Source: a bacterium (lineage in GTDB: Bacteria; Vulcanimicrobiota; Xenobia; Xenobiales; Xenobiaceae). From it: a stretch of 64,000 bases of DNA. Where the stretch lies: NCBI GenBank assembly GCA_022839105.1, contig JALHDH010000009.1, positions 4,573 to 68,572 on the forward strand, written 5' to 3'. This document shows, piece after piece, positions 4,219 through 20,238 of this stretch. Each line of letters opens with the position of its first letter. The stretch's first letter is position 1. The notes under the pieces were generated by a model. That model was not told where the DNA came from. It made no database searches and worked only from the letters and a program-made list of their open reading frames with translations. Made by a program: the position numbers and the translations under genes.

Positions 4219-5388
4219 TCAGGATCCGGCCATCTCCAGGGCCCGACGGACCGCCTTGGCGGGGTCGACCAGCCCATGACCTCCCAGGATCGCCTTGGTG
4301 TCGGGAATGGGCTGGGCGGTCTCCTTCAAGATCTGGATGACCTCCCGGGGGGAGAGATCCGGGTTGGCCTGCACCACGTCGGCCGCGATGCCCGCCACGA
4401 CGGGGGTGGCCATCGAGGTGCCGGAAAGAAGGACGTAGTAGTCGCCCAGGTGCATCACGTTGGCGCGGTCGATGGCCGAGCCCGGCGAACGGAACGAGAC
4501 CATGTTCACCCCCGGGGCGGCGATGTCCGGCTTGATGTTCCGGTCCCGGGTGGTGGGTCCCCGACTCGAGAAGAAGGCCATCGTGTCGTCGGCATGGGTG
4601 GCGGTGTTCTTGTCGTCGTAGGCCCCCACCGTCAAGACCTCTCGGGAGATGGCGGGAGTTCCGATGGTCTGGCGACCGGGGCCCGAGTTCCCTGCGGCGA
4701 TGACGGGAATGATGCCGGCCTCCAGGGCCTTGTTGACGGCCAGGGCCACCAGATCGTCCTTCTCCTTCTGATTGGCAGCCGCACCGAGGGAGAGGTTCAT
4801 GACCTTGATGTTGTATTTGTCCTTGTTCTCGATGCACCACTGGATGCCACGGATCACGTTGGCCATCGAACCCCCGCCGTTGCCGTCCAGGACCTTGACC
4901 CCGATGATGTCGGCCTCGGGGGCCGAACCGCGATAGGTCCCCCCCGCCTTGGTGCCATCCCCCGCGACCAGTCCGGCCACGTGGGAGCCATGTCCGTTGT
5001 CGTCATAGGGCTCGGTCCGGCCGTTGCAGAAATCCTTGAAGGCGACCAGGCGATCTCCGAGATCCGGATGCGGGTGGACGCCGGTATCCAGAACGGCGAC
5101 CCCGATTCCCTTGCCCGTGATCCCCATCTCCCAGACATCTTCGATGGTCAGGACCTCGCGGACCGCGTCGATCCGCTCAACCGGGCGGGGCATGCGGCTT
5201 CCGGCCCGGGTCAACTCCATCGGCGTCACGTAGGAGACCCCACCTGCCCAGGCAGCCTGGACCTGCGGCTCGGCCTGCCCGGCGTAGCCGTCCTTGGCGA
5301 CGGGTTCGGTCGGAACCCGGGGAGCGGCTTGGGGGCGCGCCTCTGGACGAGGGTTGATCCGCACGGCGTCGGTCGGCTTGAGGCTCAT
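4219..5388 (-). CDS. Subtilisin-family (S8) serine peptidase with no recognisable signal peptide
   Basis: Triad motifs are intact: VAVLDTGV (Asp), HGSHVAGLVAG (His), GTSMATPVVAG (Ser). ATG at 5388 is preceded by AGGAGG at optimal spacing. The N-terminus MSLKPTDAVRINPRPEARPQAAP... is polar and Pro-rich with no hydrophobic h-region. Confidence 0.85.
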   Translation of the reverse strand: MSLKPTDAVRINPRPEARPQAAPRVPTEPVAKDGYAGQAEPQVQAAWAGGVSYVTPMELTRAGSRMPRPVERIDAVREVLTIEDVWEMGITGKGIGVAVLDTGVHPHPDLGDRLVAFKDFCNGRTEPYDDNGHGSHVAGLVAGDGTKAGGTYRGSAPEADIIGVKVLDGNGGGSMANVIRGIQWCIENKDKYNIKVMNLSLGAAANQKEKDDLVALAVNKALEAGIIPVIAAGNSGPGRQTIGTPAISREVLTVGAYDDKNTATHADDTMAFFSSRGPTTRDRNIKPDIAAPGVNMVSFRSPGSAIDRANVMHLGDYYVLLSGTSMATPVVAGIAADVVQANPDLSPREVIQILKETAQPIPDTKAILGGHGLVDPAKAVRRALEMAGS

Positions 5389-5453
5389 GGGCTCCTCCTG
5401 GGCAGGCTTTCCTCTCGAGACTACCACGCTTCCTCGGAGGGCGGGAGGCCGGA

Positions 5454-5465
5454 GTTGTTAACAAC
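5454..5465. promoter_or_regulatory. Perfect 12-bp AT-rich palindrome GTTGTTAACAAC, candidate operator
   Basis: Read directly. It lies in the 174-bp divergent region between the S8 (-) and C11-like (+) genes and is an AT-rich island in GC-rich DNA. Confidence 0.35.
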
Positions 5466-5521
5466 GGGTCGATCGGATCCACCCTGCTCCTTTAACATGC
5501 CGGAAACCTCCACGCCGGCAA

Positions 5522-5541
5522 CCCCTGTCTATAATCAGGGG
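5522..5541 (+). promoter_or_regulatory. Candidate -10 element TATAAT (5530-5535) bracketed by inverted repeat CCCCTG/CAGGGG
   Basis: Perfect TATAAT about 28 nt upstream of ATG 5563, with a GGAGGG RBS at 5552-5557. There is no convincing -35 hexamer. The flanking 6-bp inverted repeat would let a dimeric repressor or a hairpin occlude the -10. Confidence 0.35.
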
Positions 5542-5562
5542 AGCATAGACTGGAGGGTCCCC

Positions 5563-7512
5563 ATGTCCTCGATCGGCCCCAACCTTCCCAGAAACTTCCT
5601 GGACGCCGCAGCCCTGCGCCGCGCCGCCGAAGGCCCCGCGCCCGGCCCTCGCCCCGAAGAGACCGACCGCGCCGCCGAGGCCCCCAGGAAGTCGCCGGAT
5701 TCCTCTCCGGCCCCGCCATCTTCCGAGGCAGCCGAAAAGGAATGGACCGTCCTGCTCTATCTCAACGGGAAGAACGCCCTGGCCAACCAGGCGATCTCCA
5801 CCCTCAAGCAGATGGAGTTCGTCGGCTCGGACCAGAAGATGGACTTCGTCGCCCAGGTGGGGCGCGCCAAAAGTCCGTTGGACCGGTTCTCGAAGGACTG
5901 GAGCGGGGTGCGTCGCTACCATGTCCAGCACAACGGCAAGGAGTTCACCCCCGCCGAGATCGTCAAAGGAGCCCTGATGGGCTTCCTTCCGGGCCAGACC
6001 AGGAAGATCGAGTCCCCCGTGGTCCAGGACCTGGGCCAGGCCGACATGGGCAGCGCCCGTTCCCTGGAGGAGTTCCTGGAATGGGGCATCCAGGCCTACC
6101 CCGCCAAGCGCTACATGGTCGTCATGATGGGCCCCTCCACCGGAGTCTCCGGGATGATGCGGGATGACACCACCGGCAACCAGATGAAGGTTCCGGATCT
6201 GGGTCAGGCGCTGGCCAACGTGCACGAGAAGACCGGCCGGAAGATCGACGTCCTGAACCTGGACGGGTCGGCCACCAACACCATGGAGCTGGCCTACCAG
6301 ATCAAGGACCATGTCGGCTACATGGTGGGCTCTCAGGGCATCCAGTCGGGAAGCGGGATGCCCCTGGCCATGATGGCCAACGAGATGAAGAAGGCCAACA
6401 CCGACCAGCCCCAGGACGCGCTGACCATGGCGCGTTACATGACCTTGATGAACTCCATGGCCGCCACGGCCTCGCAGTTCTCGTCCACCATCTCGGCCAT
6501 CGACCTGGAGAAGATGGATGACGTGAAGAAGGCCTGGGATGGCCTGTCCCAGGAGCTCCTGGCCGCCGAGGTCCCGGCCGCGAAGATCCGCGAGTTGCTG
6601 GACAAGACCCAGGACTTCCAGGGAAGGTCCAAGAACCAGGCCTACCAGAACTCGCGGGATGCCTTCCATTTCGCCCAGCTCGTCCAGGCCGACCCGCAAC
6701 TGTCCAACCCCAGGATCCAGTCTGCCGCGCAGGCCGCCATGGAGGCCATCGAGGGGGCCCTGGTCGGGGACGCCGCCCTGGGCAGGTATGACAAGAATGC
6801 CCACGGGATGTCGGTCTTCGGACCCACGCATTATGGCTTCTTCCGGCCAGACGGCACGCCGATCCCCAAGGATTTCTCGCACGAGGCCCACTACGACAAG
6901 ATCGCCTTCGCTGCCGACACCGGCTGGGATGAGGTCCTGACGAAGTCCGCGCGGGACTCGGGCTTCAACCGCGCGGCCAGATCCCTGGGCCTGTCCGAGA
7001 CCGCGCTGGACCGGATCCACGCCAACGTCTCGCAGCACAAGTCCAAGCTGACGACCCCGCTCCGCCTGGGTTCCATGATCGGTTGGACCAACGCCATGAA
7101 CGCCTGGGGCGGGCGTCCCGCCACGGGCATGCTCTTCCTCAACCCGCAGACCGCAGTCTACGCAGGCGTGGCCGGGGCTGGCTGGGACGCAGCCCAGGCC
7201 CTGGAGGGCCTGGTCTACTCGGCCAGCGAACTCAAGGACCGCCAGGCCGTGGTCGGCAACGCCTTCGACATCGCCAAGGCCGGCATGAAGGCCACCGCCA
7301 ACCTCAGCCACGTGATCCCGGCCCTGGCGCCCTTCGGAGCCACCGCGGGAGCCTTGATGTTCCTCAGCCCCTGGATCCAGAACTTCTACGGGATCTTCGA
7401 GCAGTATCAGCAGATCCGCGATGGAATCGAGCTTTCCAACCAGCCCCTGGCCAACAAGGTGGGCCTGGCAACCGCACGCCACTTCGGTGGCAAGAAGCTC
7501 TGGGACGAGTGA
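5563..7512 (+). CDS. Clostripain-family (peptidase C11)-like protein, apparently catalytically inactive, with a C-terminal Gly/Ala-zipper hydrophobic module
   Basis: C11 landmarks: EKEWTVLLYLNGKNAL..., VGSDQKMDFVAQ, DWSGVRRYHV, PAKRYMVVMMGPSTG, IDVLNLDGSATNTMELAYQIKD..YMVGSQ. The expected His (..W.HG.G) reads MGPSTG and the expected Cys (FDAC.M) reads LDGSAT. ATG at 5563 has a GGAGGG RBS (alternative ATG 5497). The part of ORF 4276..7512 upstream of this is the antisense shadow of the S8 gene. Confidence 0.75.
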   Translation: MSSIGPNLPRNFLDAAALRRAAEGPAPGPRPEETDRAAEAPRKSPDSSPAPPSSEAAEKEWTVLLYLNGKNALANQAISTLKQMEFVGSDQKMDFVAQVGRAKSPLDRFSKDWSGVRRYHVQHNGKEFTPAEIVKGALMGFLPGQTRKIESPVVQDLGQADMGSARSLEEFLEWGIQAYPAKRYMVVMMGPSTGVSGMMRDDTTGNQMKVPDLGQALANVHEKTGRKIDVLNLDGSATNTMELAYQIKDHVGYMVGSQGIQSGSGMPLAMMANEMKKANTDQPQDALTMARYMTLMNSMAATASQFSSTISAIDLEKMDDVKKAWDGLSQELLAAEVPAAKIRELLDKTQDFQGRSKNQAYQNSRDAFHFAQLVQADPQLSNPRIQSAAQAAMEAIEGALVGDAALGRYDKNAHGMSVFGPTHYGFFRPDGTPIPKDFSHEAHYDKIAFAADTGWDEVLTKSARDSGFNRAARSLGLSETALDRIHANVSQHKSKLTTPLRLGSMIGWTNAMNAWGGRPATGMLFLNPQTAVYAGVAGAGWDAAQALEGLVYSASELKDRQAVVGNAFDIAKAGMKATANLSHVIPALAPFGATAGALMFLSPWIQNFYGIFEQYQQIRDGIELSNQPLANKVGLATARHFGGKKLWDE

Positions 7513-7588
7513 CCTCCTCGGAGGGCCACCGGCTTGCGGGAGGCCCCCCAGACCCGATCCGGTTCGGGTCCACCCTCCCCACAACGCA

Positions 7589-7619
7589 GACGAGCCCGGC
7601 CGACCTGGCCGGGCTCGTC
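7589..7619. terminator. Bidirectional intrinsic terminator between convergent genes
   Basis: Perfect 13-bp stem GACGAGCCCGGCC / GGCCGGGCTCGTC with loop GACCT, followed by TGGTTTCT on the + strand. It sits between the stop at 7512 (+) and the stop at 7647 (-). Confidence 0.7.
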
Positions 7620-7646
7620 TGGTTTCTCCAAGTTCGACCTGGTTTT

Positions 7647-8744
7647 TCAGTCCTCGGGCGGAGACGGGGGAGCAGGGGGCGCTGGCGGGGGCTCAGGAGC
7701 CGGTTTCTCCTTGCCGCCCTCGTCCCCGGTGACGGCCCTGACCTGACCCAGGACGCTCCAGACCGTGTTGGCCACCCAGGCCCCGGCAGCCACGATGGCG
7801 GCCGGGCGGCCCAGCCCCATGGACACCGCCATGGTCGCCGCGCCCTGGACCGTCTGCAAGGCGCCCGAGACGGTGTCCGGAAGGTGGCGATTGATGGCCG
7901 AGGAGCGGGTCTTGCTGAGCCCGCCCAAGAGCGAATAGGTCCCACCGACCATCCCGAGCATCCCGTAGATCGCCTTGGGAGAACTCCCGCGGATGGCCTC
8001 CACGGTGTTCCACATCGCCCCCATGCCGCCGATGCCTCGGAAGAACTGGTCGTTGGCTTGGCTGAAGGCAAAGGCCTTCTCGAACTTGCGGCTCCCCCCG
8101 ACCTCGCCGAGATCGCTGGCCTTGCTGAAGGCTGGAAGCGCCGAGGATTCCCCGGCTGGAGCCGGAGAGGCCGGAGCCTGTGCAGGCTGGGGGGCCTGGG
8201 TCTCGGGTTCCGAGTGAGCCTGCTTGCGCTCCTGGAGCTTCTCGTGGGCCGCCACGCCCAAACGACCGACGAGAGCCGCAGCCGCAGCGCCTCCCGCCAC
8301 GGCTCCGACCAGGGCCGGAGCCCCCAGGGCGGGAGCCGCCACCGCTGCGTAGGTGGCCAACCCCTGGAAGAGCTGCAGGCTTCCCTTCAAAGCACCGTGC
8401 CCATCCCGATTCACGGCGGCCTGGCGCCCTTGGGAAGCCCCGACCGCAACGTCGATCGTCCCTGCGGCCAGCGCCAGGGGTCCGCTCAAAGACCATCCAG
8501 GCAGACCCGCCAACCCACCGGCCAACGCGTACACCTGACCCGCGCGCGCCGCCCCCTGAGCCAGGAAGCGGACGGCCGAGGCAGCGGTGTAGGCCGCTTC
8601 GAAGCCCTTGCGATGCTTGTCCGGGCTGGCAGCCTGGAACTCGTCCAGACCAGGGCCTTCCTGCGCCGAGACGGAGGCCTGCGGGGCGGAGGCCAGGGCC
8701 CGCAGGCTGGAGGCCGGGGTCGGGTTGGGCGTGATGGGATTCAA
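7647..8744 (-). CDS. Orphan Gly/Ala-zipper protein with two internal copies of a hydrophobic module, a Pro/Gln-rich linker and a Pro-rich tail
   Basis: TTG start at 8744 (MNPITPNPTPASS...) with AAGGGG upstream. Third codon positions are G/C-rich in this frame, and the competing frames are Arg/Gly/Pro-rich. Module copies: QVYALAGGLAGLPGW...AAPALGAPALVGAVAGG and AIYGMLGMVGGTY...SMGLGRPAAIVAAGAWV. No signal peptide and no family I recognise. Confidence 0.6.
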   Translation of the reverse strand: MNPITPNPTPASSLRALASAPQASVSAQEGPGLDEFQAASPDKHRKGFEAAYTAASAVRFLAQGAARAGQVYALAGGLAGLPGWSLSGPLALAAGTIDVAVGASQGRQAAVNRDGHGALKGSLQLFQGLATYAAVAAPALGAPALVGAVAGGAAAAALVGRLGVAAHEKLQERKQAHSEPETQAPQPAQAPASPAPAGESSALPAFSKASDLGEVGGSRKFEKAFAFSQANDQFFRGIGGMGAMWNTVEAIRGSSPKAIYGMLGMVGGTYSLLGGLSKTRSSAINRHLPDTVSGALQTVQGAATMAVSMGLGRPAAIVAAGAWVANTVWSVLGQVRAVTGDEGGKEKPAPEPPPAPPAPPSPPED

Positions 8745-8839
8745 GACACAAGCCCCTTTCTGGTGCTTCCATCCTGATGATACCGAGCCAGGAGGCTCAC
8801 CGTGTTAAAACGATGTGAAAGGGTTCCTGGACGGGGGGT

Positions 8840-10039
8840 CTACAGCGTCCGGGTCTGCACCTGCCTCTTCTGGGTCTCGCGGAGTTGCTCGAGGCGCTTG
8901 ATCTCGATCTCCACCTCCCAGTCCATCTGGACCTCCTTCTGGAGCTCAGGAGGCAGGGCCGAGATGAAGGCCTGCTTGTCGTTGCAGTTGTCGAAGGCGG
9001 TCTGGAGATCGATATGCCCCTCGTGATAGCGATTGAGCAGGGATTCCTCCATCGTGGTCATGCCGCTGGAAGCCGCGATCTCCATCAACGAATGCAGCAG
9101 GTGGGTGCGATCGTCGCGAATGATGTGCTTGACCGCCGAATTCGAGATCAACACCTCGGCGGCGACCACCCGGCCGGTGCCGCTGCGACGCGGAATCAGC
9201 CTCTGGCACATGATGCCCCGGATCACGTCGGTCAACTGGTGGCGCGCGCTGACCCGAAGGTTGTCGTCGAAGAAGGACAGGAATCGCGAGACCGTCTCGA
9301 TGGCGCTCCGCGTGTGCAGGGTGGCCAGCACCAGCGCCCCGACCTGGGCGGCCCGCAGGGTCATCGCCGCGGTCTCGGCGTCGCGGATCTCGCCCACGAA
9401 GATGATGTCGGGGTCCTGACGCAGGGCTCCGCGCAGGGCGACGTGGAAGTTCTCGACGTGGGTGCCCACCTCGCGCTGTTCGATCATCGAGCGCTTGCTC
9501 TCGAAGAGGACCTCGATCGGGTCCTCCACGGTGATGATGTGGCGCTGGCTCTTGCGGTTCACCAGTTCGATCATGGCCGCAATCGTGGTGGACTTGCCCG
9601 AGCCGGTGGCCCCTGTGACCAGGACCAGGCCGTTCTTCTCGAAGGCCATGCCCTCGAAGGGCCTGGGCAGGCCCAGTTCGTCGAAAGTCTGGATCCGGTG
9701 GGCCAGAACCCGCATCGAGATCGAAGAGCCGTGATACTGCTTGAAGACGTTCAGGCGGAACCGGCGACGCATGGTGGGGAACTCGACGGTATAGTCCAGA
9801 TCCCGCCCCCCATCCTCGTAGAAGACGCTCTTCAGGTAGCGATCGGTCAGGAGATCGATCAGTTTGTTGATCTCCTCCTGGGTGATGGGGTCGGGCTCCA
9901 TGCGGACCAGCTCCCCGTGAATCCGTGCGATGGGGGGAGAACCGGCCGAAAAATGGAGGTCTGAGGCCCCCTGCACCAAGGCGCTGTGCACCACGCCCCA
10001 CTCCATCAGGACCCTCTCGGCTTCGCGATCCAGGATCAT
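8840..10039 (-). CDS. pilT: PilT/PilU-family type IV pilus retraction-type hexameric ATPase (orphan)
   Basis: Walker A GATGSGKST, ITVEDPIE, QREVG, ALRQDPDIIFVGEIRD, LATLHT, and an AIRNLIRE-like AVKHIIRD. It has about 18 extra N-terminal residues and a roughly 35-residue charged, probably coiled-coil C-terminal tail. Confidence 0.9.
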   Translation of the reverse strand: MILDREAERVLMEWGVVHSALVQGASDLHFSAGSPPIARIHGELVRMEPDPITQEEINKLIDLLTDRYLKSVFYEDGGRDLDYTVEFPTMRRRFRLNVFKQYHGSSISMRVLAHRIQTFDELGLPRPFEGMAFEKNGLVLVTGATGSGKSTTIAAMIELVNRKSQRHIITVEDPIEVLFESKRSMIEQREVGTHVENFHVALRGALRQDPDIIFVGEIRDAETAAMTLRAAQVGALVLATLHTRSAIETVSRFLSFFDDNLRVSARHQLTDVIRGIMCQRLIPRRSGTGRVVAAEVLISNSAVKHIIRDDRTHLLHSLMEIAASSGMTTMEESLLNRYHEGHIDLQTAFDNCNDKQAFISALPPELQKEVQMDWEVEIEIKRLEQLRETQKRQVQTRTL

Positions 10040-10133
10040 CTCGCTTGAGTCAACGCCTTTCTGGAGACTTGCCCCTTCCTTCGCCGTGGGACGAGGAAAG
10101 GTCCTGCCCGGATCTGGCTTCGTGGCCCGAGGC

Positions 10134-10142
10134 TGCTATACT
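10134..10142 (+). promoter_or_regulatory. Candidate extended -10 promoter TGCTATACT for the 1005-aa ORF
   Basis: A TGnTATACT match in the 211-bp pilT/large-ORF divergent region, about 110 nt upstream of ATG 10251. The -35 is weak. Confidence 0.3.
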
Positions 10143-10250
10143 GGGCGGGAGACTCACCTTGGGGGCCGAAAGGTCTGGTCAGGCTGAAGCGCGTCTTGAC
10201 AAGGTGCAGGTGGGAAGAGGCTGGCTGACGGAAAGGGAAGACTCTCTGAG

Positions 10251-13200
10251 ATGGCGGGGCTGGGTCACAGGATCGAGACGAGTCTCCGGAGCCTGGTCCG
10301 GCGCCTGAAGAAGGCTCCCACTCCAGAGGACACGGCTCTTGTCTCCAACGAGGCCATGATCAAGGCCCACCAGGTTGACCCTGGCCAGGTCGCCCTGACC
10401 AGCCTTCTGGATGGCCGGCGCCTCTTCAGCATCCAGGGAACCCTGGAGGCCGCCCTGACCCGGGTGGAGGGCGAACGGGACACCGTCTTGCGCTTGCCCC
10501 TCCGGGATTCGACCGGAACCAGACAGTGGATCCGCCTGAAGGTCCTCAACACGGCCTCTTCGGGAAGTCCACCGGTCCTTCGTCGGATCCGCGCCGTGGC
10601 CATCCCCGACGGATTGGAGTTCCATTTCCGCTCGGACCGGGCACCCGACTCGGTCGAGGTCATCCTGGAGTTCACGCTTCCTCCTGGGCTCTCCGTCAGC
10701 GATTTCCGACCCTTCGAGGATCTCCAGCCGGTCTTCCGCGAGCTGCCGGGCGTGGCCGAGATGGCCTCCTACCTGCGCGCCTGCATGCATCAGCGGCGCA
10801 ATCAGTTGCAGATCCTCAACGATCTCGCCGAGAGCCTGCACTCGGCCCGCGTCCGCGACGCCGTGGGCCTGATGCGCCAACGCCGCATGGCCGTGATCTT
10901 CCAGGCTGCCCCCCTGAGCGGGCTCTCCGAGAAGCTGGCCACGCGTCGGGTGGAGATGTCGGGCACCATCCTCGGAGCGGCCTGCCTGGCCGCGGAGTTG
11001 GAGGCCGGAACCCTGGGACTGGACCAGATGGCGATCCTGCTGGAGGAGGCCATTCCCTACGAGCCACAACCCGGCGTCCTGGACCGCTTCGAGGAGATCC
11101 TGGTCCGGACGGCCCTGGGCGTCCATGACGAGTCCGAGGAGACCTCGCCCCTGGAGCGCGCGCTGGCCGCGGCCTCCCGGGCCCTGACCCAGGACTCGGC
11201 GCTGCGGGTCCTGACGGACCTGGCCGCCCAGAGCAAGGCCGGGGCCGCGGCCGGAGTGGTCCGCATCCTGCGTCGGGATCTCCGCGACTCCTCGGCGCTC
11301 TCGGACCGATCGCAACTGGCCCTGAGGCGGCTCCTGGCAGCCCGGGGGCGCTCGCTTTCCCGGGGCACCATGGCGGCCCTCTGCCTCTTCATCGAAGCCG
11401 AACTGGGCCTGCTCACGGGCGAACAGGTCGAAGACCTGATCCGCTCCAAGGACCGCCCCCCGACGACGGCCTACACCCTGGCCGCCGTCGGGGGAGCCTG
11501 CGACTTCGAATTGCGGGGTTTCCGCGTCCCCGCCGAGCAGATCCCGAGTCTGGTCGCCCTGGCTGAGGGGCAGGCCTTGATCCAGGTGGGGCAGGATTTC
11601 CTGACCCCCGACGAGGCTCCGGCGCTCCAGGCCCCCACCTGCGTGCTGGTCCACCTCCCTGTCCTGGAGAACCTGCACACCCGGGACCTGGAGGTGCTGG
11701 CCCAGACCGGACTGCCGGTCCACGCCTGCTACCGGGCGACCCAGGATCGCCAGGTCCTGTGGACGGCCTGCCCGGGACCCGAGACCTCCTTCGCCAGCCG
11801 CGCGCTGGGTCGGGTCCTGCCGGCGGCTCCCGAGGAACTGGAGGGTCGGGAATCGGTCCTGACCACCTGGGCGGATCTCCGGGGTCGAATCTCATTCCGT
11901 TTCCACGCCCGTTTCTCGGCCGAGGATCTCCTGGGCTCTCCCGAGGAACTCCGCTGGACCGGCGAGATCGTGGAACTGCCCGCGGCCGACTCCTTGCCCC
12001 CGGTCCTCACCGAGATGGGCCGCCACGAACTGTCGACCCTGGAGGATCCCGAACTCCTTCCTGAAGGTCTCACCGAGCTCCAGGCTGCCCTGGAGGGTCT
12101 GCGCGACGAGACCATGACCTCCCTTCACGATCACCCCCGCCTCCTCTCCCAGGTGCGACTGGGCCTGGTTTCCGCGCCCTTCATCCGGCTGACCTGCGAC
12201 GCCATCCAGGGCCAGGGAAGACAGGCGATCCTGGAGGCTGCCCGCCGTCCTGACGGGGTCCGGGAAGAGCTGCTGGCCCACCCCGCCTTGCTGGCCATGC
12301 TGGACATGGCGGAAACAGCCGAGACCGGTCTTCTGGCCGCCGGCATCGCCCTGGCCCCCCCTCCCGAGGCACGAGCCCTGGTCAGTCGGCTCCTCCCCAT
12401 CCTGCGAACCCACGCCGCCTCGACGCAGTCGACGGTTCGCTGGGTCGTGGCCCGCCTGATGGGAACCACCCTGGGGACCCTGGCCCCGGATGAAGCCCTG
12501 GCCATCCTCGAAAGGCTTCGCACCGATCCCAGTCGAGGCGTCTCCTCGGCGGCCAGATCCTCGCTGGTCACCCTGGCCCTGGCTCCGGTCCGCCCGGTGC
12601 CGGACCTTCTGGAGGTGCGGGCCAGGCGGACCGACCCCCAGGCCCGCAAGGCCGAGGAGGCCAGCCGACTGACGGCCCAGGTGACCGACCACGTGCGGGG
12701 TTTCCTGATCTTCCCCCAGGACCGGAGCCCAGGAGCCCGCTTCCTGGTGCGGGACGACCCGCCGCGCCCCCGCCCCTACCGGGACCGGATCGAGGCCCTC
12801 TGCGGGCTGGTGGCGGGCCTGAACCTGACCTTGCAGGCCGACCCCCGCCCGGCCCTCCTGGAAGTGCGCCCGGCCCTGGCTGGGTGCGAGGGCCTCCGGT
12901 TCCCCCTGGGTCCCGGAAGCGCAGCCGGTCCCTGGCCCCTCTCGGGTGAAGCCGTGGGAATGGCCGACCGGACCCATTTCTCGCCCTTCTTCGAGCATCT
13001 CTGCCAGGTGGCGGATCACCTGCCGCTCGAGGATATCGAGATCCTGCGCCATTGCCAGGATGGGGACGCCGAGATCCAGACCTACGACCAGATCCGGCTG
13101 GATTTCGACTCGGAAGACCCGCGCTCGTCCTTCCCCGAGAACCCCGAGGACCTGCGGGAGACGGCCCGTCGCCTGATCCAACGCCTGGGGCTGGCCCGCG

Positions 13201-13268
13201 ATCTGGAGGAGGCCGTGCTCCGGCTGCTCACCCTGCAGTGGCGGAGCCTGGGCCCGGGGCGTCGATGA
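10251..13268 (+). CDS. Large (1005 aa) hypothetical soluble protein, Leu/Ala/Glu/Arg-rich and probably alpha-helical repeat-containing
   Basis: The longest ORF with protein-like composition; both antisense ORFs (10179..11723, 11892..13181) are Gly/Arg/Pro/Gln-rich shadows. I found no catalytic motif. One HEAT-like stretch (..VRWVVARLMGTTLGTLAPDEALAILERLRTDPSRGVSSAARSSL..). The stop overlaps the acyP ATG (ATGA). Confidence 0.65.
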   Translation: MAGLGHRIETSLRSLVRRLKKAPTPEDTALVSNEAMIKAHQVDPGQVALTSLLDGRRLFSIQGTLEAALTRVEGERDTVLRLPLRDSTGTRQWIRLKVLNTASSGSPPVLRRIRAVAIPDGLEFHFRSDRAPDSVEVILEFTLPPGLSVSDFRPFEDLQPVFRELPGVAEMASYLRACMHQRRNQLQILNDLAESLHSARVRDAVGLMRQRRMAVIFQAAPLSGLSEKLATRRVEMSGTILGAACLAAELEAGTLGLDQMAILLEEAIPYEPQPGVLDRFEEILVRTALGVHDESEETSPLERALAAASRALTQDSALRVLTDLAAQSKAGAAAGVVRILRRDLRDSSALSDRSQLALRRLLAARGRSLSRGTMAALCLFIEAELGLLTGEQVEDLIRSKDRPPTTAYTLAAVGGACDFELRGFRVPAEQIPSLVALAEGQALIQVGQDFLTPDEAPALQAPTCVLVHLPVLENLHTRDLEVLAQTGLPVHACYRATQDRQVLWTACPGPETSFASRALGRVLPAAPEELEGRESVLTTWADLRGRISFRFHARFSAEDLLGSPEELRWTGEIVELPAADSLPPVLTEMGRHELSTLEDPELLPEGLTELQAALEGLRDETMTSLHDHPRLLSQVRLGLVSAPFIRLTCDAIQGQGRQAILEAARRPDGVREELLAHPALLAMLDMAETAETGLLAAGIALAPPPEARALVSRLLPILRTHAASTQSTVRWVVARLMGTTLGTLAPDEALAILERLRTDPSRGVSSAARSSLVTLALAPVRPVPDLLEVRARRTDPQARKAEEASRLTAQVTDHVRGFLIFPQDRSPGARFLVRDDPPRPRPYRDRIEALCGLVAGLNLTLQADPRPALLEVRPALAGCEGLRFPLGPGSAAGPWPLSGEAVGMADRTHFSPFFEHLCQVADHLPLEDIEILRHCQDGDAEIQTYDQIRLDFDSEDPRSSFPENPEDLRETARRLIQRLGLARDLEEAVLRLLTLQWRSLGPGRR

Positions 13269-13540
13269 GGGAGCGCCTGTGGGCCAGGGTGCACGGAAGG
13301 GTCCAGGGGGTCGGTTTCCGCTGGCACGTCCTGCGCCGGGCCCAAGCCCTGGAACTCTCCGGATGGGTGCGCAACCGGGCGGATGGTTCGATCGAAGTCC
13401 TGGCGGAAGGACCCCGAAACGTCCTGATCCAGCTCCTGGATGCCCTGCGACGGGGCCCTGCGGCGGCCCGGGTGATCCGGGTGGAGGAGTCCTGGTCCGA
13501 AGCCTGGCTGCAACAAGTCGGCTTCGAGGTCCGCGACTGA
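13265..13540 (+). CDS. acyP: Acylphosphatase
   Basis: VHGRVQGVGFRWHV...GWVRNRADGSIEVLAEG signature, 91 aa. The ATG overlaps the upstream stop by 4 nt. Confidence 0.85.
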   Translation: MRERLWARVHGRVQGVGFRWHVLRRAQALELSGWVRNRADGSIEVLAEGPRNVLIQLLDALRRGPAAARVIRVEESWSEAWLQQVGFEVRD

Positions 13541-13572: not shown

Positions 13573-14106
13573 TCAGGCCTGGGGATCCTCCCCGCTCGGC
13601 GAGAGCTCTCGCGAGAGCCTGCGGGCGTGCGCCCACTGCGCGGCCAGGTGGATGGTCAGGATCTGGAGCAGCAGGATCCCGACCTGCTGATGGAGAGGCA
13701 GGACGGGGATCAACTCCTGATGCCCCAGCATCACCGGATTCAAGCCGCTGAGCAGATCGACCATGGGCAGGACTCCCGCCCAGGACGGGTCGTCGGCGAA
13801 GCGCCCCAGGAGCCACCCCAGCAGGGGGAAGGCCATCAGGCTGGTGACCAGGGCCACGGCCGGCCAGTGCATGCGAGGAGCCACGATCCTCAGGACCTCC
13901 AGAACCCATTCCTCGCTGCCCTGATGGACTCGGGTCGCCTCCTCGACCTGGGCTTGAAGGGTCGGGTCGGCCAGCATCGCGATCTGGGCATCGATTCCGC
14001 CCACGAAGGCCCAGAGCAGGTAGACGCCGGCGACCATGGCCAAGGAGACCTGGGCGTAGATCGACAGGTTGCGCAAGGTCGAGGGAGGACGGGGCGAATC
14101 GCTCAT
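13573..14106 (-). CDS. Hypothetical integral membrane protein (about 4 TM helices)
   Basis: ATG at 14106; hydrophobic helices such as VSLAMVAGVYLLWAFVGG, VALVTSLMAFPLLGWLLG and VGILLLQILTIHL. No recognised family. Confidence 0.55.
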   Translation of the reverse strand: MSDSPRPPSTLRNLSIYAQVSLAMVAGVYLLWAFVGGIDAQIAMLADPTLQAQVEEATRVHQGSEEWVLEVLRIVAPRMHWPAVALVTSLMAFPLLGWLLGRFADDPSWAGVLPMVDLLSGLNPVMLGHQELIPVLPLHQQVGILLLQILTIHLAAQWAHARRLSRELSPSGEDPQA

Positions 14107-16234: not shown

Positions 16235-17467
16235 CTAGCGCCTGGAGGGTTTCGGTTCCAGGGTGGCCCGGACCGCCTTGGAAGGGGAAAGAAGTCCGAG
16301 ATGGGAGGTCCCGTCGTAATGCCGGAGCCCGTCAAGCCCACGGGCCGCCAGCCGACGATCCACCTCCGAGGAGTCCAGGAGCGCAGGGTCCAGGCTCGAG
16401 GAAGCCGTGGCAAAAGCCCAGTTGGCGTGGAAGGAGGGAATCGAGGCCACCAGGCTGGTCACCTTGGGGAAGACCCGGGCCAGGGCCTCACGGATCCTGC
16501 GATGGCCTTCGAGATAGAGGAAGTCCCCCCGGCCCGCCTGCATCGAGAAGATCCCCGGCTCGGCGAGGCGCTCCCGGACCAGGCGAAAGAATCCTTGCGA
16601 GAAGAGGCTCTGCGACGGGCTCTCGGGATGGGGATCCGTCAGATCGCTGATCACCACGTCGAAGCTCCCCTCGACTCCCTCCAGGAAGGCCCGGGCATCG
16701 CCGAAGACCAGGCGGGCCCGAGGGTCCTCGAAGGCTCCGGAGGCGTACTCGGGAGCGTGGCGCCGGCAGACTTCCACCACCTCCCGATCCAGATCCACCA
16801 GGAAGGCCTCCTGGACGCTGGGGTGGCGCAGCACCTCGCGCAGGGTGGCCCCCTCTCCGCCCCCCAGGATCGCGACCCTTCGCGGTTCGGGATGGACGAT
16901 CATGGCCGGATGGACGATCGTCTCGTGGTAGATGAACTCGTCGCGGGTCGCGGACTGGAAATCCCCGTCGAGCAGCAGGTAGGTGCCATACAGGGGGTTC
17001 TGCAGCAGGGCCACCTCCTGGAAGGCCGTCCGCCCACGGAAGAGTTCGCGGCGAACCCGGTGGGACACGGCGACGTCCTGGCCCTCGCTGCGCAGGACGT
17101 GGCCGAAGGCGCCTCCCGGACGAGGCAGGCCCCTGTCCAGGGTGGTCAGGGTCATCTGCCTGGATCCCAGGAACTCGGCCAGATAACGACAGGCCCTTTC
17201 CGGGTCCGTGTGCAGCCCGCAGGTATAGACATCGATGGCTGCATATCCGAGCTCGGGCCAGGTGTGGATCGACAGGTGTGATTCTGCGATCACCACGACA
17301 CCGCTGACGCCTTGCGGAGAGAATCGATGGAAGGCGACTTCGCGCACCTCGGCGCCCGCCTCCTGGGCAGCCCGGACCATGGCGTTGCGAACCAGGTCGA
17401 GGTCTGCCAGCCGGTCCTGCCTGCACTGAGACAGCTCGGCGATGATATGGGTTCCCAGAGCGATCAT
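16235..17467 (-). CDS. speE: Fusion protein: S-adenosylmethionine decarboxylase proenzyme (SpeH/SpeD type) + spermidine synthase (SpeE)
   Basis: The N-terminal roughly 115 aa carry the VSGVVVIAESHLSIHTWPE self-processing site (ES|S). The C-terminal part carries LLLDG..Q....DEFIYHE, ILGGGEGATLRE, LVDLD and ISDLTDP aminopropyltransferase motifs. ATG at 17467 has a GGAG RBS. Confidence 0.85.
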   Translation of the reverse strand: MIALGTHIIAELSQCRQDRLADLDLVRNAMVRAAQEAGAEVREVAFHRFSPQGVSGVVVIAESHLSIHTWPELGYAAIDVYTCGLHTDPERACRYLAEFLGSRQMTLTTLDRGLPRPGGAFGHVLRSEGQDVAVSHRVRRELFRGRTAFQEVALLQNPLYGTYLLLDGDFQSATRDEFIYHETIVHPAMIVHPEPRRVAILGGGEGATLREVLRHPSVQEAFLVDLDREVVEVCRRHAPEYASGAFEDPRARLVFGDARAFLEGVEGSFDVVISDLTDPHPESPSQSLFSQGFFRLVRERLAEPGIFSMQAGRGDFLYLEGHRRIREALARVFPKVTSLVASIPSFHANWAFATASSSLDPALLDSSEVDRRLAARGLDGLRHYDGTSHLGLLSPSKAVRATLEPKPSRR

Positions 17468-17510
17468 TGCAAATCTCCATTCCCGGAGTGATTTGCGGAG
17501 TCCCACCTCC

Positions 17511-17545
17511 AAAACGCCCCGCCTGGAGGATGAATCCAGGAGGGG
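17511..17545 (-). promoter_or_regulatory. Terminator-like hairpin inside the speH-speE 5' leader (possible attenuator)
   Basis: On the minus strand: CCCCTCCTGGA-TTCATCC-TCCAGGCGGGG (11-bp stem with 1 mismatch) followed by CGTTTTGG. It lies about 45 nt upstream of the start codon, and no upstream co-directional gene needs terminating. Confidence 0.3.
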
Positions 17546-17572
17546 CCGCGGCCAGGATTTGCCGACCATGGC

Positions 17573-17758: not shown

Positions 17759-19699
17759 ATGGCCTGTGTCGGCGAATCTGCCCCCCGCCCTGGCTCCAAC
17801 CCACCCCCGCCGCCTTCAGGCTCCGGGGTCCCGATCCGACTCTGGGAGATCCTCGCCGTGGCCGCCGTGGCGGCCGTGTTCCTGGGCCTGGACTTCGCCT
17901 GGATCGACCTTCACCACGACTTCCTGTACGACGACGCCCATCCCCACCTGATGCACCTGGTCGGGCTGGCCTGGCGGCCGCTGGAGACCCCCTATCCCTA
18001 TCCCCCGCTCCCCTATCGCGTGGTGCTGGCCGGCTGGAACCTCCTGGGCATGGACATCCGCGTCGCCCAGAAGAGCCTGGCCTGCTGCTCGGTCCCCTTC
18101 GTCTTCGCGACGTGGGCCTGGGCCCGCTTCCACCTCAAGCCGACGGGAAGCCTCCTGGTTGCCCTGGTGGCCGCAGGCGCCCCCTGGCTGACCACCTACG
18201 GGCGCCTCCTGGGCCTGGAGGTGATCTCGGCCGCCTGCCTGGCAGGATTGATGGCTGCCCTGGCCTGGAGTCGGGGATTCACCCGGCCCCTCCCGACCCT
18301 CCTGATCGGCCTGGGGGCTGGAGCCGGCCTGCTCGCCTCGCTCCAGTTCCTCTCCTTCGCCCTGCTCCCCTGGCTTGTTGCGGGAGTGCGGACCTGGAGG
18401 GGCGGCCGGACCGCCCGAGTCCTGCTGCTCGGCGCCGCCGGGGTGGCCTGCCTGGTCCTGCTCGTGTTGGCCCCGTTCTCGGAGCGGGAACAACCTCCGA
18501 CCCAGGCCTGGGTGGCGACGATCGGCCTGGCCCTGCTGCTTGTTGCACTGGCCGGATGGCTCCGGCACAGCGACTCCCCGAGCCCCGGCCTCTGGAATCC
18601 GGGAGCGGGACTGGCCCTCTCGGTGGGCCTGGCCCTGGTTCTGAGCCTGCCGTGGTATCTGGACAACTTCGCCTCGATCCAGGCCCGAGGTCTGGACACG
18701 GTCGGCCATCCCCACTCACTGGGGGTGACCCTGCCTCAGTACCTGCTCCAGATCGGGACGACCTGGACGGGGGCCTTCCTGCTCCTGCCCTTCTCGATGG
18801 TGGCCTGCCTGCGCACCAGGAGCCTGCGCGACAGCGTCCTGACGGCCCTGGCCGCCACTGCGCTGGGAGTCCTGGCCATCGCGGATTCAGGAGCCCGCTG
18901 GCTGCCCCGCTACATCCTGAGTGCCACCCCCCTCCTGGTCTTCGCAGGGATGGCCCCGCTGGCCTGGCAGGTCGACCGGCTGGGAAGGCTCCTCAAGGCC
19001 GGCATCCTGATCGGCGCCCTGGCCCTGTCCCTGATGCAGGTGGGCTCCTTCCTGTGGGCGCCGGGGGCCCTCCCCCTGAACCTGCGTCAGGCCCCCTCCC
19101 TCACCCTGGGTCGGATCGTGCGGACTCTTCCCCCCAATCCGGTGCCCTATCCCTGGGAGGCGGTGCTGGCCCACCGACCCGCCGGACTGCTGGTCTGCGA
19201 TCTCTTTCCGGAAGGCCGTTCCTGGAGCGTCCCTGCGGATCGCCTCGAGGCCCTGGCCGGCCTCCGGGGCCTCGAGATGCGCTTCGAAATCCGCCGAGCC
19301 GGATCCCCGGCGCCCCCCCCGGACCCGAGGGGATTCGACTTCCTGCTCCTGATCCGACCGGAAGGGATCCCTCGGGAACAGGCTTTCCGGGACTTCCCCT
19401 GGCTCGAGGTCTATCAGCCCGTCCAGAGCTGGAGGATGGCCCATCCTCCAGCCTGGTGCACCCCTCCGTGGGAGACCGCCTACCCGCCCTGCGCGAGCTC
19501 CGGCCACCGCTTCGAGATCCAGCTCCTTCGAAGGACAGGTGATGCCGAGACCTCCAGCGGAACGCTCCCAGGGCTCCTCCAGGACCCCACCACTCCCGAA
19601 CCCCGGACGGCCCCGGCCAGGGAAGTTCAGTGGGCCCCGTCGGGGATGATCTCCGAAAGACATGTATCGGTCCAGTGGGAGCCTGGGAAGGTGGATTGA
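17759..19699 (+). CDS. Polytopic membrane protein (about 13 TM plus a roughly 190-aa C-terminal domain), possibly a GT-C fold (ArnT/PMT-like) glycosyltransferase
   Basis: The topology resembles GT39/GT83 enzymes. I could not read a diagnostic catalytic motif. The start is uncertain (ATG 17759 chosen; the ORF opens at 17618). Confidence 0.5.
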   Translation: MACVGESAPRPGSNPPPPPSGSGVPIRLWEILAVAAVAAVFLGLDFAWIDLHHDFLYDDAHPHLMHLVGLAWRPLETPYPYPPLPYRVVLAGWNLLGMDIRVAQKSLACCSVPFVFATWAWARFHLKPTGSLLVALVAAGAPWLTTYGRLLGLEVISAACLAGLMAALAWSRGFTRPLPTLLIGLGAGAGLLASLQFLSFALLPWLVAGVRTWRGGRTARVLLLGAAGVACLVLLVLAPFSEREQPPTQAWVATIGLALLLVALAGWLRHSDSPSPGLWNPGAGLALSVGLALVLSLPWYLDNFASIQARGLDTVGHPHSLGVTLPQYLLQIGTTWTGAFLLLPFSMVACLRTRSLRDSVLTALAATALGVLAIADSGARWLPRYILSATPLLVFAGMAPLAWQVDRLGRLLKAGILIGALALSLMQVGSFLWAPGALPLNLRQAPSLTLGRIVRTLPPNPVPYPWEAVLAHRPAGLLVCDLFPEGRSWSVPADRLEALAGLRGLEMRFEIRRAGSPAPPPDPRGFDFLLLIRPEGIPREQAFRDFPWLEVYQPVQSWRMAHPPAWCTPPWETAYPPCASSGHRFEIQLLRRTGDAETSSGTLPGLLQDPTTPEPRTAPAREVQWAPSGMISERHVSVQWEPGKVD

Positions 19700-20235: not shown

Positions 20236-20238
20236 CCC

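What the first reader, a model, noticed from the sequence alone, without database searches (positions are those of the whole stretch)
4219..13540. Accessory-looking block: S8 protease, inactive C11 scaffold, orphan PilT ATPase, Gly-zipper proteins, 1005-aa orphan and acylphosphatase
This roughly 9-kb block is flanked by ordinary genes, and four of its seven products have no function I can assign. The assignable ones are odd in context. The S8 protease has an intact Asp/His/Ser triad but no signal peptide. The clostripain-fold protein appears substituted at both catalytic positions. The PilT-type hexameric ATPase has no pilB, pilC, pilMNOPQ or pilin gene anywhere in the 64 kb. pilT and the Gly-zipper gene are co-directional, 95 nt apart, and run into a bidirectional terminator shared with the C11-like gene. 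The S8 and C11-like genes diverge from a 174-bp region with a perfect palindrome and a TATAAT. My inference is a protease-processed, ATPase-assisted, membrane-active effector or export module. It matches no described system that I know, but the functional link among these genes is unproven.
Basis: partly seen in the sequence, partly recalled or inferred. Interest (0 to 1): 0.7.

Follow-up and report, generated by a model that had tools for sequence, protein, structure and literature searches.

The report
Subtilase paired with dead clostripain-like partner
The block is not one seven-gene machine: its conserved core is an active subtilisin-type protease paired with a catalytically dead clostripain-fold protein, plus helper proteins sharing a new helical domain, while the PilT ATPase, the 1005-aa protein and the acylphosphatase are local neighbours.

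Summary
The window comes from a Candidatus Eremiobacterota (Xenobia/UBP9) genome, and the block has the same base composition as the rest of the window. Across about 25 related genomes, only one link holds: an S8 subtilase with an intact triad next to a C11-fold protein. That C11-fold protein lacks both catalytic residues and carries a C-terminal four-helix Gly/Ala-rich domain. The pair occurs in two gene orders, divergent and tandem. It has a conserved control region containing TGTTAACA. The "Gly-zipper" protein is two copies of the same helical domain, has a near-copy of the motif upstream, and follows the C11-like gene directly in another clade, together with the 177-aa membrane protein. 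PilT is a true PilT/PilU-family ATPase. PilT, the 1005-aa ORF and the acylphosphatase are linked to the pair only in close relatives whose flanking genes are syntenic too. My inference is a subtilase with a non-catalytic partner or substrate that carries membrane-inserting helical domains. The function is unknown. I rate it a new variant of known protease/pseudoprotease pairs, of moderate interest.

The parts
4219..5388 (-). S8 subtilase, 389 aa. The triad is intact and there is no signal peptide. It is the only catalytic component of the core.
   Evidence: PF00082, 205 bits. D/H/N/S motifs are present in this protein and in all partner S8s. No hydrophobic N-terminus. AGGAGG lies 6 nt before the ATG at 5388. 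Best PDB match is Tk-SP 3afg at 260 bits. Linked to the C11-like gene in about 20 genomes.
5389..5562 (.). Divergent control region. It holds the palindrome GTTGTTAACAAC (5455-5466), a second element TTTAACATGCCGGAAA (5491-5506), a TATAAT box (5530-5535) and a Shine-Dalgarno sequence (GGAGG).
   Evidence: In an alignment of 11 orthologous spacers, TGTTAACAA, the T-TAACA and CGG-AA positions of the second element, and TA---T of the TAT--T box are invariant, at protein identities down to 45%. 26 of 42 TGTTAACA sites in 1.28 Mb of loci lie within 500 nt upstream of a C11 domain.
5563..7512 (+). C11 (clostripain-fold) pseudoprotease, 649 aa. It has a disordered N-terminus (1-55), a C11 fold (about 56-470; nt 5728-6972) with His->Pro and Cys->Ser, and a C-terminal four-helix Gly/Ala-rich ('GA') domain (about 479-620; nt 6997-7422) followed by a tail helix.
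   Evidence: PF03415, 75 bits. AlphaFold2 pLDDT 72.6, with Foldseek matches to clostripain 9cip (E 1.6e-15) and to other C11 structures. Catalytic columns. The C-terminal domain is homologous to the Gly-rich protein's repeat.
7587..7621 (.). Perfect 15-bp stem with a 5-nt loop between the convergent C11-like and Gly-rich genes. Probably a terminator.
   Evidence: RNA fold -36.6 kcal/mol, z -5.7. Flanking T tracts are weak.
7647..8744 (-). GlyZ, 365 aa. It carries two internal copies of the GA helical domain (repeat 1 at nt 8220-8615, repeat 2 at nt 7710-8102), a disordered N-terminus and linker, and a Pro-rich tail.
   Evidence: No Pfam, NCBIfam or PADLOC hit. Repeat 1 against repeat 2: hhalign 98.8%, E 6.5e-17. 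AlphaFold2 gives two four-helix units at pLDDT 55. No PDB fold match. Homologues lie directly downstream of the C11-like gene in L004 and L013-L016.
8803..8810 (-). TTTTAACA (one mismatch to TGTTAACA) in the 95-nt gap, 20 nt upstream of TATCAT. Candidate promoter of GlyZ itself.
   Evidence: Perfect TGTTAACA lies at the same place upstream of GlyZ in L087, L088 and L089.
13573..14106 (-). 177-aa membrane protein with about four TM segments. A facultative member of the module.
   Evidence: Hydropathy. Homologues at 31-35% identity sit between the C11-like gene and GlyZ in L004, L013, L014 and L016, and after the C11-like gene in L018.
8840..10039 (-). PilT/PilU-family ATPase, 399 aa. A neighbour; membership of the module is not shown.
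   Evidence: TIGR01420, 385.8 against a 319.1-bit cut-off. Linked only in close relatives. Identity is 99/94/82% inside the clade and <=45% elsewhere.
10251..13268 (+). 1005-aa lineage-restricted ORF, probably alpha-helical, with a weak HEAT_2 hit. A neighbour, not part of the module.
   Evidence: Only 9 homologues. The distant one, at 30% identity, lies next to ThrRS. HEAT_2 E 0.008. No PDB hit.
13265..13540 (+). Acylphosphatase, 91 aa, translationally coupled to the 1005-aa ORF. A neighbour, not part of the module.
   Evidence: PF00708, 89 bits. The ATGA overlap is visible in the sequence. The same pairing occurs in L088.

Best explanation
**What the block is.** It is a chromosomal stretch of a Candidatus Eremiobacterota (Xenobia/UBP9) genome. 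It contains one real, conserved module plus unrelated neighbours.

**The module core (shown).**
- The core is a signal-less, catalytically competent S8 subtilase paired with a C11 (clostripain-fold) protein.
- In every member, that C11-fold protein has lost both the catalytic His and Cys and has gained a C-terminal four-helix Gly/Ala-rich domain with a hydrophobic helical hairpin.
- The two genes share a conserved control region built around TGTTAACA.

**Facultative members (shown).**
- GlyZ is two further copies of the same helical domain, with a near-copy of the motif in front of it.
- A 177-aa, roughly four-TM protein also belongs.
- In another clade, both of these lie in one operon-like row directly behind the C11-like gene.

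**How it works (inferred, not shown).** The subtilase is the only enzyme. The dead C11 protein is its dedicated partner. It may be a substrate whose disordered linkers are cut to free the helical domain. It may instead be a PopD-like keeper that holds the protease in check. In either case the Gly/Ala-rich helical domains of the C11-like protein and GlyZ are the working end, associating with each other and/or inserting into a membrane.

**The neighbours.** PilT, the 1005-aa ORF and the acylphosphatase were wedged between GlyZ and the membrane protein in this lineage only. They are best read as neighbours.
For: **Linkage.** S8 lies next to the pseudo-C11 gene in about 20 of 25 genomes. In about 13 species at 45-90% identity the genes are divergent, about 175 bp apart. 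In about 9 species at 30-35% identity they are tandem, 10-130 bp apart. One MAG carries both kinds of pair.

**Loss of the catalytic dyad.** Every C11 homologue with the C-terminal helical domain lacks His and Cys. Nearly all of the roughly 90 other C11 homologues retrieved keep HG and (D)AC; four to six variant ORFs do not. None of them has an S8 directly beside it. All partner S8s keep D/H/S.

**Shared domain.**
- GlyZ repeat 1 against repeat 2: hhalign 98.8%, E 6.5e-17.
- C11-like C-terminus against GlyZ repeat 2: hhalign 94%, E 1e-7.
- The GlyZ-only HMM hits the C11-like C-termini of the tandem class at E 8e-8 to 2e-4.
- AlphaFold2 gives four long helices in each copy.

**Shared cis element.**
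- TGTTAACAA is invariant in 11 spacers.
- Its sites are enriched about 15-fold upstream of C11 domains.
- It is present upstream of GlyZ in L087-L089, and with one mismatch in the window.
- It is absent upstream of PilT, the 1005-aa ORF and the membrane protein.

**Gene order.** GlyZ and the membrane protein follow the C11-like gene directly in L004, L013, L014 and L016.

**Neighbours.** PilT, the 1005-aa ORF and the acylphosphatase are linked only where flanks (DUF6986, GalT, catalase) are also syntenic. The 30%-identity homologue of the 1005-aa ORF sits beside ThrRS.

**Precedent.** A signal-less subtilase held by an adjacent partner is known from PopC/PopD (PMC6434023).
Against: - No experiment bears on the question, and no complex prediction could be run.
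- The substrate/keeper roles and the membrane activity are inferred only from fold, hydropathy and linkage.
- The GlyZ model has low confidence (pLDDT 55) and no structural match.
- The Gly/Ala-rich composition could inflate the profile-profile scores.
- Three related species (L009, L011, L012) have the C11-like gene without an S8 within 10 kb and without the exact motif.
- GlyZ and the membrane protein are absent from the 10-kb flanks in several genomes (L002, L008, L010).
- PilT cannot be formally excluded. It is a divergent, lineage-restricted paralogue and the most conserved gene of the block. It is adjacent to GlyZ in every genome where it was found.
Confidence: 0.6

Rival explanations
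1. All seven genes form one system in which a PilT-type hexameric ATPase powers export or assembly of protease-processed, membrane-active proteins.
For: - PilT lies 95 nt upstream of GlyZ on the same strand, with no terminator between them.
- This PilT is a divergent paralogue, <=45% identical to others. It is under strong constraint and is adjacent to GlyZ wherever it was found.
- Pilus or c-di-GMP genes recur loosely near the pair elsewhere: a PilZ gene in L088, L089 and L004, prepilin-like genes in L010, and T2SSE ATPases in L008.
- S8, the C11-like protein and GlyZ lack Sec signals yet have similar N-termini.
Against: - PilT, the 1005-aa ORF and the acylphosphatase are absent from the 10-kb flanks of the pair in about 18 more distant genomes.
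- Linkage exists only where the flanks are syntenic too.
- GlyZ has its own TGTTAACA-type promoter element.
- PilT passes the ordinary PilT/PilU family threshold, and the phylum makes type IV pili (PMC9758169).
- pilT loci standing apart from other pil genes are common (general knowledge).
- The distant homologue of the 1005-aa ORF is not near any of these genes.
Confidence: 0.12
2. A protease-triggered cell-death or defence module, in the manner of bacterial gasdermin operons. On a signal, the subtilase cleaves the C11-like protein or GlyZ, and the freed helical domains permeabilise the membrane.
For: - An active protease lies next to proteins with hydrophobic helical hairpins inside amphipathic bundles.
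- S8 gives a PADLOC 'subtilase' hit at 113 bits and IetS hits.
- In L002 the pair sits beside a PglZ/methylase/helicase (BREX-like) cluster.
- The regulatory region is tightly conserved.
Against: - The C11-like protein, GlyZ and the membrane protein have no PADLOC hit.
- No gasdermin or other known pore-former fold was found.
- In each fetched locus the divergent pair is a single copy. Its divergence tracks that of neighbouring genes, and it sits among different housekeeping genes. That looks like vertical inheritance across a class, not a mobile defence island.
- Composition is native.
Confidence: 0.12
3. The genes are unrelated neighbours and there is no module at all.
For: The genome is high-GC and gene-dense. 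Most of the block's synteny is seen only in close relatives.
Against: - The S8/C11-like linkage survives in two gene orders down to 30% identity.
- Loss of the dyad, gain of the helical domain and S8 adjacency coincide nearly perfectly.
- A domain is shared and so is a motif.
Confidence: 0.03

Closest known systems
Peptidase family C11 (clostripain; PmC11; the Bacteroides thetaiotaomicron C11 proteases 6n9j and 6nag 'iotapain'), MEROPS clan CD
   Same: Pfam PF03415 above threshold. The predicted fold matches solved C11 structures (9cip, 6n9j, 6mzo; E 1e-15 to 1e-11).
   Different: The catalytic His-Cys dyad is replaced in every member (H->P/Q/E, C->S/N/other). There is no signal peptide. An extra C-terminal four-helix domain is present. 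The gene is always beside an S8 gene.
PopC/PopD of Myxococcus xanthus (a signal-less subtilisin-like protease and the adjacent partner that binds it and blocks its release)
   Same: An S8 protease without a signal peptide and with an unassigned N-terminal part, encoded next to a non-enzymatic partner (PMC6434023).
   Different: No PopD sequence was compared, so homology is untested. Here the partner has a dead C11 fold plus a helical domain. Secretion is not shown.
Csp proteases of Clostridioides difficile (active subtilase CspB working with the pseudoproteases CspA and CspC)
   Same: An active S8 acts together with catalytically dead protease-fold proteins. The NCBIfam CspC and CspBA models give weak local hits to this S8.
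   Different: There the dead partners are themselves S8-fold and the system is spore-specific. Here the dead partner is C11-fold, and the scores are far below the family cut-offs.
Bacterial gasdermin-protease operons
   Same: A protease gene lies beside a gene for a protein with a latent membrane-inserting part. This is a resemblance of logic only.
   Different: No gasdermin homology and no PADLOC hit. The candidate membrane part is alpha-helical. The module looks vertically inherited.
PilT/PilU type IVa pilus retraction ATPases (TIGR01420)
   Same: The 399-aa protein scores above the family cut-off and has the Walker A motif GATGSGKST.
   Different: It is only <=45% identical to other PilTs found. 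It has a C-terminal extension of about 45 aa. No pilus genes lie in the window.
Type VII secretion mycosins (TIGR03921)
   Same: Best NCBIfam hit of the S8, at 171.5 bits.
   Different: The score is below the cut-off of 278.75. There is no signal peptide, no C-terminal anchor, and no T7SS genes in the window.

Membership tests
Peptidase C11 (clostripain family) | Sequence match to PF03415 above the gathering score | tested here: met
   75.2 bits against a cut-off of 25.8.
Peptidase C11 (clostripain family) | Clan CD alpha/beta fold like solved C11 proteases | tested here: met
   AlphaFold2 model at pLDDT 72.6. Foldseek 9cip E 1.6e-15, 6n9j E 7e-13, 6mzo E 2e-11.
Peptidase C11 (clostripain family) | Catalytic His-Cys dyad | tested here: not met
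   The His position is Pro and the Cys position is Ser in the window. Neither residue is present in any of about 30 subfamily members, while nearly all other C11 homologues keep HG and (D)AC. It is therefore a pseudoprotease of the C11 fold, not a C11 peptidase.
Subtilase S8 | PF00082 match and the Asp/His/Ser triad with the oxyanion Asn | tested here: met
   205 bits. DTGV, HGSH, AAGN and GTSMATP are present.
T7SS mycosin (TIGR03921) | Score at or above the equivalog cut-off | tested here: not met
   171.5 against 278.75 bits.
T7SS mycosin (TIGR03921) | Signal peptide and C-terminal membrane anchor; T7SS genes nearby | tested here: not met
   No terminal hydrophobic segments. No EccC/FtsK-type or WXG genes among the scanned window ORFs.
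PilT/PilU retraction ATPase (TIGR01420) | Score at or above the subfamily cut-off; Walker A and B motifs | tested here: met
   385.8 against 319.1 bits. GATGSGKST and DPDIIFVGEIRD are in the sequence.
PilT/PilU retraction ATPase (TIGR01420) | Works with a type IV pilus machine encoded in the genome | not testable with these tools
   There are no pil genes in the 64-kb window, and the rest of the genome is not available. The phylum's cultured member has pilMDTC and pili (PMC9758169).
Gly-zipper membrane proteins (Pfam Gly-zipper models) | Match to any Pfam Gly-zipper model | tested here: not met
   No Pfam family at E<=10 for GlyZ or for the C11-like C-terminus.
Bacterial gasdermin / known defence systems | Match of the non-protease components to PADLOC models or to a gasdermin fold | tested here: not met
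   No PADLOC hit for the C11-like protein, GlyZ, the 1005-aa ORF or the membrane protein. Foldseek on GlyZ gives E>1.
PopC/PopD-type protease-keeper pair | The partner binds the protease and blocks its activity or release | not testable with these tools
   This needs pull-down, activity or secretion assays. Only the gene arrangement and the lack of a signal peptide are shared.
Acylphosphatase (PF00708) | Pfam match above the cut-off | tested here: met
   89.3 against 22.5 bits.

The most novel reading that the evidence does not exclude
S8, the dead-C11 protein and GlyZ form a previously undescribed system specific to Eremiobacterota.

- They are co-regulated through TGTTAACA.
- Their short N-termini lack a hydrophobic core and co-vary between clades. 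These could be a shared signal-peptide-independent targeting or export tag.
- The subtilase would gate the release of a new membrane-inserting four-helix domain.
- In the window's lineage, a divergent PilT paralogue would have been recruited as the motor.
Probability: 0.15. Interest if true: 0.75.

Novelty: new variant of a known kind. Interest (0 to 1): 0.45.

Why it matters
- It defines a clean, testable pair of an active protease and a dead protease-fold partner in a phylum with almost no experimental biology.
- It adds a C11-fold case to the short list of bacterial pseudoproteases.
- It identifies a rare helical domain with no family assignment: only 24 clusters among 1.84 billion representative proteins.
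- It identifies a conserved operator-like motif, TGTTAACA, that marks C11-family genes across Eremiobacterota genomes from 34 to 72% GC. That motif gives a handle for finding the regulator and its regulon.
- It also shows that an apparently coherent seven-gene "module" read from one window was three units of different evolutionary depth.

Tried and rejected
- **Island hypothesis.** Rejected: GC and skew are unremarkable, and there is no tRNA or mobile-element gene.
- **Known RNA element in the spacers.** Nothing in Rfam reaches threshold.
- **Sigma-70 promoter scan.** It finds no site. The TTAACA element lies 32 nt from the TATAAT-like box, so it is not a -35. Sigma-54 and ECF readings did not hold across the orthologous spacers (by eye).
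- **GlyZ and the C11-like C-terminus against Pfam at E<=10, NCBIfam, PADLOC and the PDB by fold.** No usable hit.
- **The 1005-aa ORF.** No PDB hit and only a weak HEAT_2 hit.
- **T7SS reading prompted by the mycosin hit.** Rejected on score and context.
- **Literature searches for a C11 pseudoprotease or an S8-C11 operon.** Nothing relevant was found.
- **PilT neighbourhoods at intermediate distance.** The metagenome scan returned only 99% copies and then relatives at <=45%, so it could not separate linkage from synteny.
- **Proteins from the representative search.** The encoding-contig look-up accepts only window proteins or homologous-protein hits, so I did not try to look them up, and the single-repeat GA proteins have no known context.
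Full report
**Source and gene models.** The window is about 68% G+C throughout, so raw ORF lists are full of shadow ORFs. I fixed the gene models with third-position GC. The window's PilT protein is encoded on a Logan assembly contig from run SRR18493541, whose gene calls agree with mine. The closest public genomes are MAGs named UBP9, Candidatus Xenobia, Vulcanimicrobiota or Eremiobacterota. The block shows no compositional break, has no tRNA, and no integrase or transposase turned up. It is therefore not an obvious island.

The genes are as follows.
- S8 subtilase, 4219-5388(-).
- C11-like protein, 5563-7512(+).
- Gly/Ala-rich 365-aa protein (GlyZ), 7647-8744(-).
- PilT-type ATPase, 8840-10039(-).
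- 1005-aa ORF, 10251-13268(+).
- Acylphosphatase, 13265-13540(+), overlapping the preceding stop by ATGA.
- 177-aa membrane protein, 13573-14106(-).

The S8 has DTGV, HGSH, AAGN and GTSMATP and no hydrophobic N-terminus. Aligned to solved C11 proteases, the C11-like protein has Pro at the catalytic His and Ser at the catalytic Cys. The 174-bp divergent spacer contains the perfect palindrome GTTGTTAACAAC and a TATAAT. The convergent C11-like and GlyZ genes are separated by a perfect 15-bp hairpin (-36.6 kcal/mol, z -5.7). The pilT-GlyZ gap is 95 nt. None of the other window ORFs scanned with Pfam is a pilus gene.

**The co-localisation test splits the block.** I collected homologues of the C11-like protein and fetched 80 loci from species-representative genomes with 10-kb flanks, plus loci from assemblies. 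I then searched them with all 13 window proteins of the region and clustered all neighbours.
- The whole block recurs only in close relatives, with C11-like identity of 72-90%. In those genomes the flanking DUF6986, GalT-like, catalase and M48-like genes are syntenic too, so these say nothing about function.
- Beyond them, only S8 stays with the C11-like gene. In about 13 species at 45-90% identity the two genes are divergent, about 175 bp apart. In about 9 species at 30-35% identity S8 lies immediately downstream on the same strand, 10-130 bp away.
- One MAG carries one pair of each kind (L008 and L038).
- Three species (L009, L011, L012) have the C11-like gene without S8 within 10 kb.
- GlyZ (37%) and the membrane protein (31-35%) follow the C11-like gene directly, on the same strand, in L004, L013, L014 and L016. 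L018 has the membrane protein only.
- PilT, the 1005-aa ORF and the acylphosphatase are absent from all these flanks. The exception is two distant T2SSE-family genes 5.6-9.5 kb away in L008.
- The 1005-aa ORF has only nine homologues. Its one distant relative, at 30%, sits beside a threonyl-tRNA synthetase gene.

**The C11-like protein is a conserved pseudoprotease with an added domain.**
- In a 22-sequence alignment the His position is P, Q or E and the Cys position is S or N, while many other positions are invariant.
- Across all 160 C11-domain matches in the fetched loci, every protein with the C-terminal extension lacks both residues. Nearly all others (Elusimicrobia, archaea, low-GC Eremiobacterota-like MAGs) keep HG and (D)AC. 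A few variant ORFs (in L035, L058, L063, L066 and L045) are the exceptions. None of these others has S8 directly beside it.
- All partner S8s keep the triad.
- AlphaFold2 on the alignment gives a confident C11 core that matches clostripain and the Bacteroides and Parabacteroides C11 structures (E 1e-15 to 1e-11). It is followed by four long helices at 479-515, 528-557, 560-581 and 586-620.

**GlyZ is two copies of that same helical domain.**
- Its halves align at hhalign probability 98.8% (E 6.5e-17).
- The C-terminal domain of the C11-like protein aligns to repeat 2 at 94% (E 1e-7).
- An HMM built from GlyZ repeat 2 alone finds the C-termini of tandem-class C11-like proteins at E 8e-8 to 2e-4.
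- The GlyZ model is weak (pLDDT 55) but shows two four-helix units.
- Each copy ends in a hydrophobic helix-turn-helix of about 2 x 16 residues.
- Nothing in Pfam (even at E<=10), NCBIfam, PADLOC or the PDB resembles it.
- An exhaustive profile search of 1.84 billion representative proteins finds only 24 clusters. They are two-repeat, one-repeat and two longer forms. The ten clusters scanned with Pfam gave no hit above a family cut-off.

The "Gly-zipper" label is thus not supported. The domain is a rare, unassigned helical domain.

**A shared cis element ties S8, the C11-like gene and GlyZ together.**
- Eleven orthologous divergent spacers were aligned. TGTTAACAA is invariant across them, as are the T-TAACA and CGG-AA positions of a second element (TTTAACATGCCGGAAA in the window), TA---T of a TAT--T box and most of the ribosome-binding site. 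The encoded proteins are as little as 45% identical.
- Over 1.28 Mb of fetched loci, 26 of 42 TGTTAACA sites fall in the 4% of sequence that lies within 500 nt upstream of a C11 domain. This includes active C11 paralogues in low-GC Eremiobacterota-like MAGs.
- In the window the motif occurs once perfectly, in the spacer, and once with one mismatch. The mismatched copy lies in the pilT-GlyZ gap, 20 nt upstream of TATCAT. By itself one such near-match is about what chance predicts (1.42 matches expected in the window).
- In L087, L088 and L089 the GlyZ-upstream copy is perfect.
- No copy precedes PilT, the 1005-aa ORF or the membrane protein.
- The element lies 32 nt from the -10-like box, too far to be a -35. 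I read it as an operator or activator site. The factor that binds it is unknown.

**The neighbours.**
- The ATPase passes the PilT/PilU family cut-off (385.8 against 319.1 bits).
- The cultured member of the phylum makes type IV pili and carries pilMDTC (PMC9758169). A pilT gene standing apart from other pil genes is common (general knowledge).
- This PilT is unusual in one respect. It is the most conserved gene of the block inside its clade (99, 94 and 82% where the C11-like protein is 89, 82 and 72%). It is nonetheless at most 45% identical to any other PilT found in the metagenome scan.
- Relative to the L004-type order (S8 <> C11-like, membrane protein, GlyZ), the window looks like an inversion of the membrane-protein/GlyZ segment, with PilT and the 1005-aa-ORF/acylphosphatase pair inserted between them. 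I cannot exclude that the paralogue was recruited, but nothing independent supports it.

**Most likely mechanism.**
- Shown: there is a conserved, co-regulated pair of an active subtilase and a dead C11-fold protein, and helical-domain proteins are attached to that pair.
- Inferred: the subtilase acts on, or is held by, the dead C11 protein. The Gly/Ala-rich four-helix domains are the effector end, pairing with each other and/or inserting their hydrophobic hairpins into a membrane.
- The nearest functional precedents are PopC/PopD (a signal-less subtilase held by an adjacent partner; PMC6434023) and the Csp protease/pseudoprotease set of Clostridioides (general knowledge).
- A gasdermin-like defence reading is possible. 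It is weakened by the apparently vertical, single-copy inheritance and by the lack of any PADLOC hit for the non-protease parts.

**Verdict.** The real finding is narrower: an undescribed subtilase/pseudo-C11/helical-domain module with its own operator motif. I rate it a new variant of known protease/pseudoprotease pairs, interest 0.45. The function is unproven.

Noticed in passing
window 5361-5388(-), 5563-5592(+), 8715-8744(-); L004 9795-9824(-), 10001-10030(+), 12672-12701(+): Within each genome the first ~10 residues of S8, the C11-like protein and GlyZ resemble each other, and they co-vary between clades. In the window clade they are MSLKPTDAVR and MSSIGPNLPR. In the L004 clade they are MQVQANQT, MKVQSVNY and MKLHSAPQ, and these are the only 3 of 23 annotated genes in L004 that start this way. 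None has a hydrophobic signal peptide. This may be a shared targeting or export tag.
   Followed up: partly
L029-L034, L037, L048, L058, L063, L066, L074 (about 60-170 nt upstream of the C11 ORFs): TGTTAACA, often as two copies 11 nt apart, also precedes catalytically intact C11 paralogues in low-GC Eremiobacterota-like MAGs. It does not precede the Elusimicrobia or archaeal C11 genes. This suggests a phylum-specific regulator of an expanded C11 family.
   Followed up: partly
L088 13342-13761(-), L089 4049-4468(-); L004 18697-19554(-): In closer relatives (C11-like identity 72-83%) a 139-aa PilZ-domain gene is inserted between S8 and the C11-like gene, on the same strand as the C11-like gene. 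Tandem-class loci L021, L025, L026 and L038 carry a shared gene family, GGDEF/EAL-like by eye from its N-terminal sequence, 2-4 kb upstream. This is a weak c-di-GMP theme.
   Followed up: no
L088 3873-5090(-), L087 13074-14291(+): These relatives carry a second S8 gene (405 aa, with what looks like a propeptide-type N-terminus) between the acylphosphatase and the membrane protein. The window lacks it.
   Followed up: no
L002 12057-21923: In this distant genome the S8/C11-like pair lies directly beside an HTH gene and a PglZ / DNA methylase / SNF2-helicase cluster, which looks BREX-like.
   Followed up: no
L010 12817-16493: Four consecutive genes with hydrophobic N-termini, two with prepilin-type motifs (GFTLAELMMAIF, LTLFEMLATLAL), lie 1.5-5 kb downstream of the C11-like gene.
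   Followed up: no
window 4276-7512(+): The mechanical 1078-aa ORF is the C11-like gene extended upstream through the antisense shadow of the S8 gene. It is a high-GC artefact. The true start is the ATG at 5563, supported by the conserved N-terminus and the Shine-Dalgarno sequence.
   Followed up: yes
window 16235-17569(-): AdoMet decarboxylase and spermidine synthase read as one 444-aa ORF in the window. The Logan contig of the same organism calls them as two overlapping genes (142 + 307 aa). This is either a real fusion or a frameshift difference between assemblies.
   Followed up: no
window 19627-21578(-) and 25374-26909(+): A 202-aa protein with an NADase-translocation F5/8-type-C domain lies next to a 393-aa ankyrin-repeat protein. 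A 511-aa ORF has a weak primase (AEP-TOTE) hit. None of these was examined.
   Followed up: no
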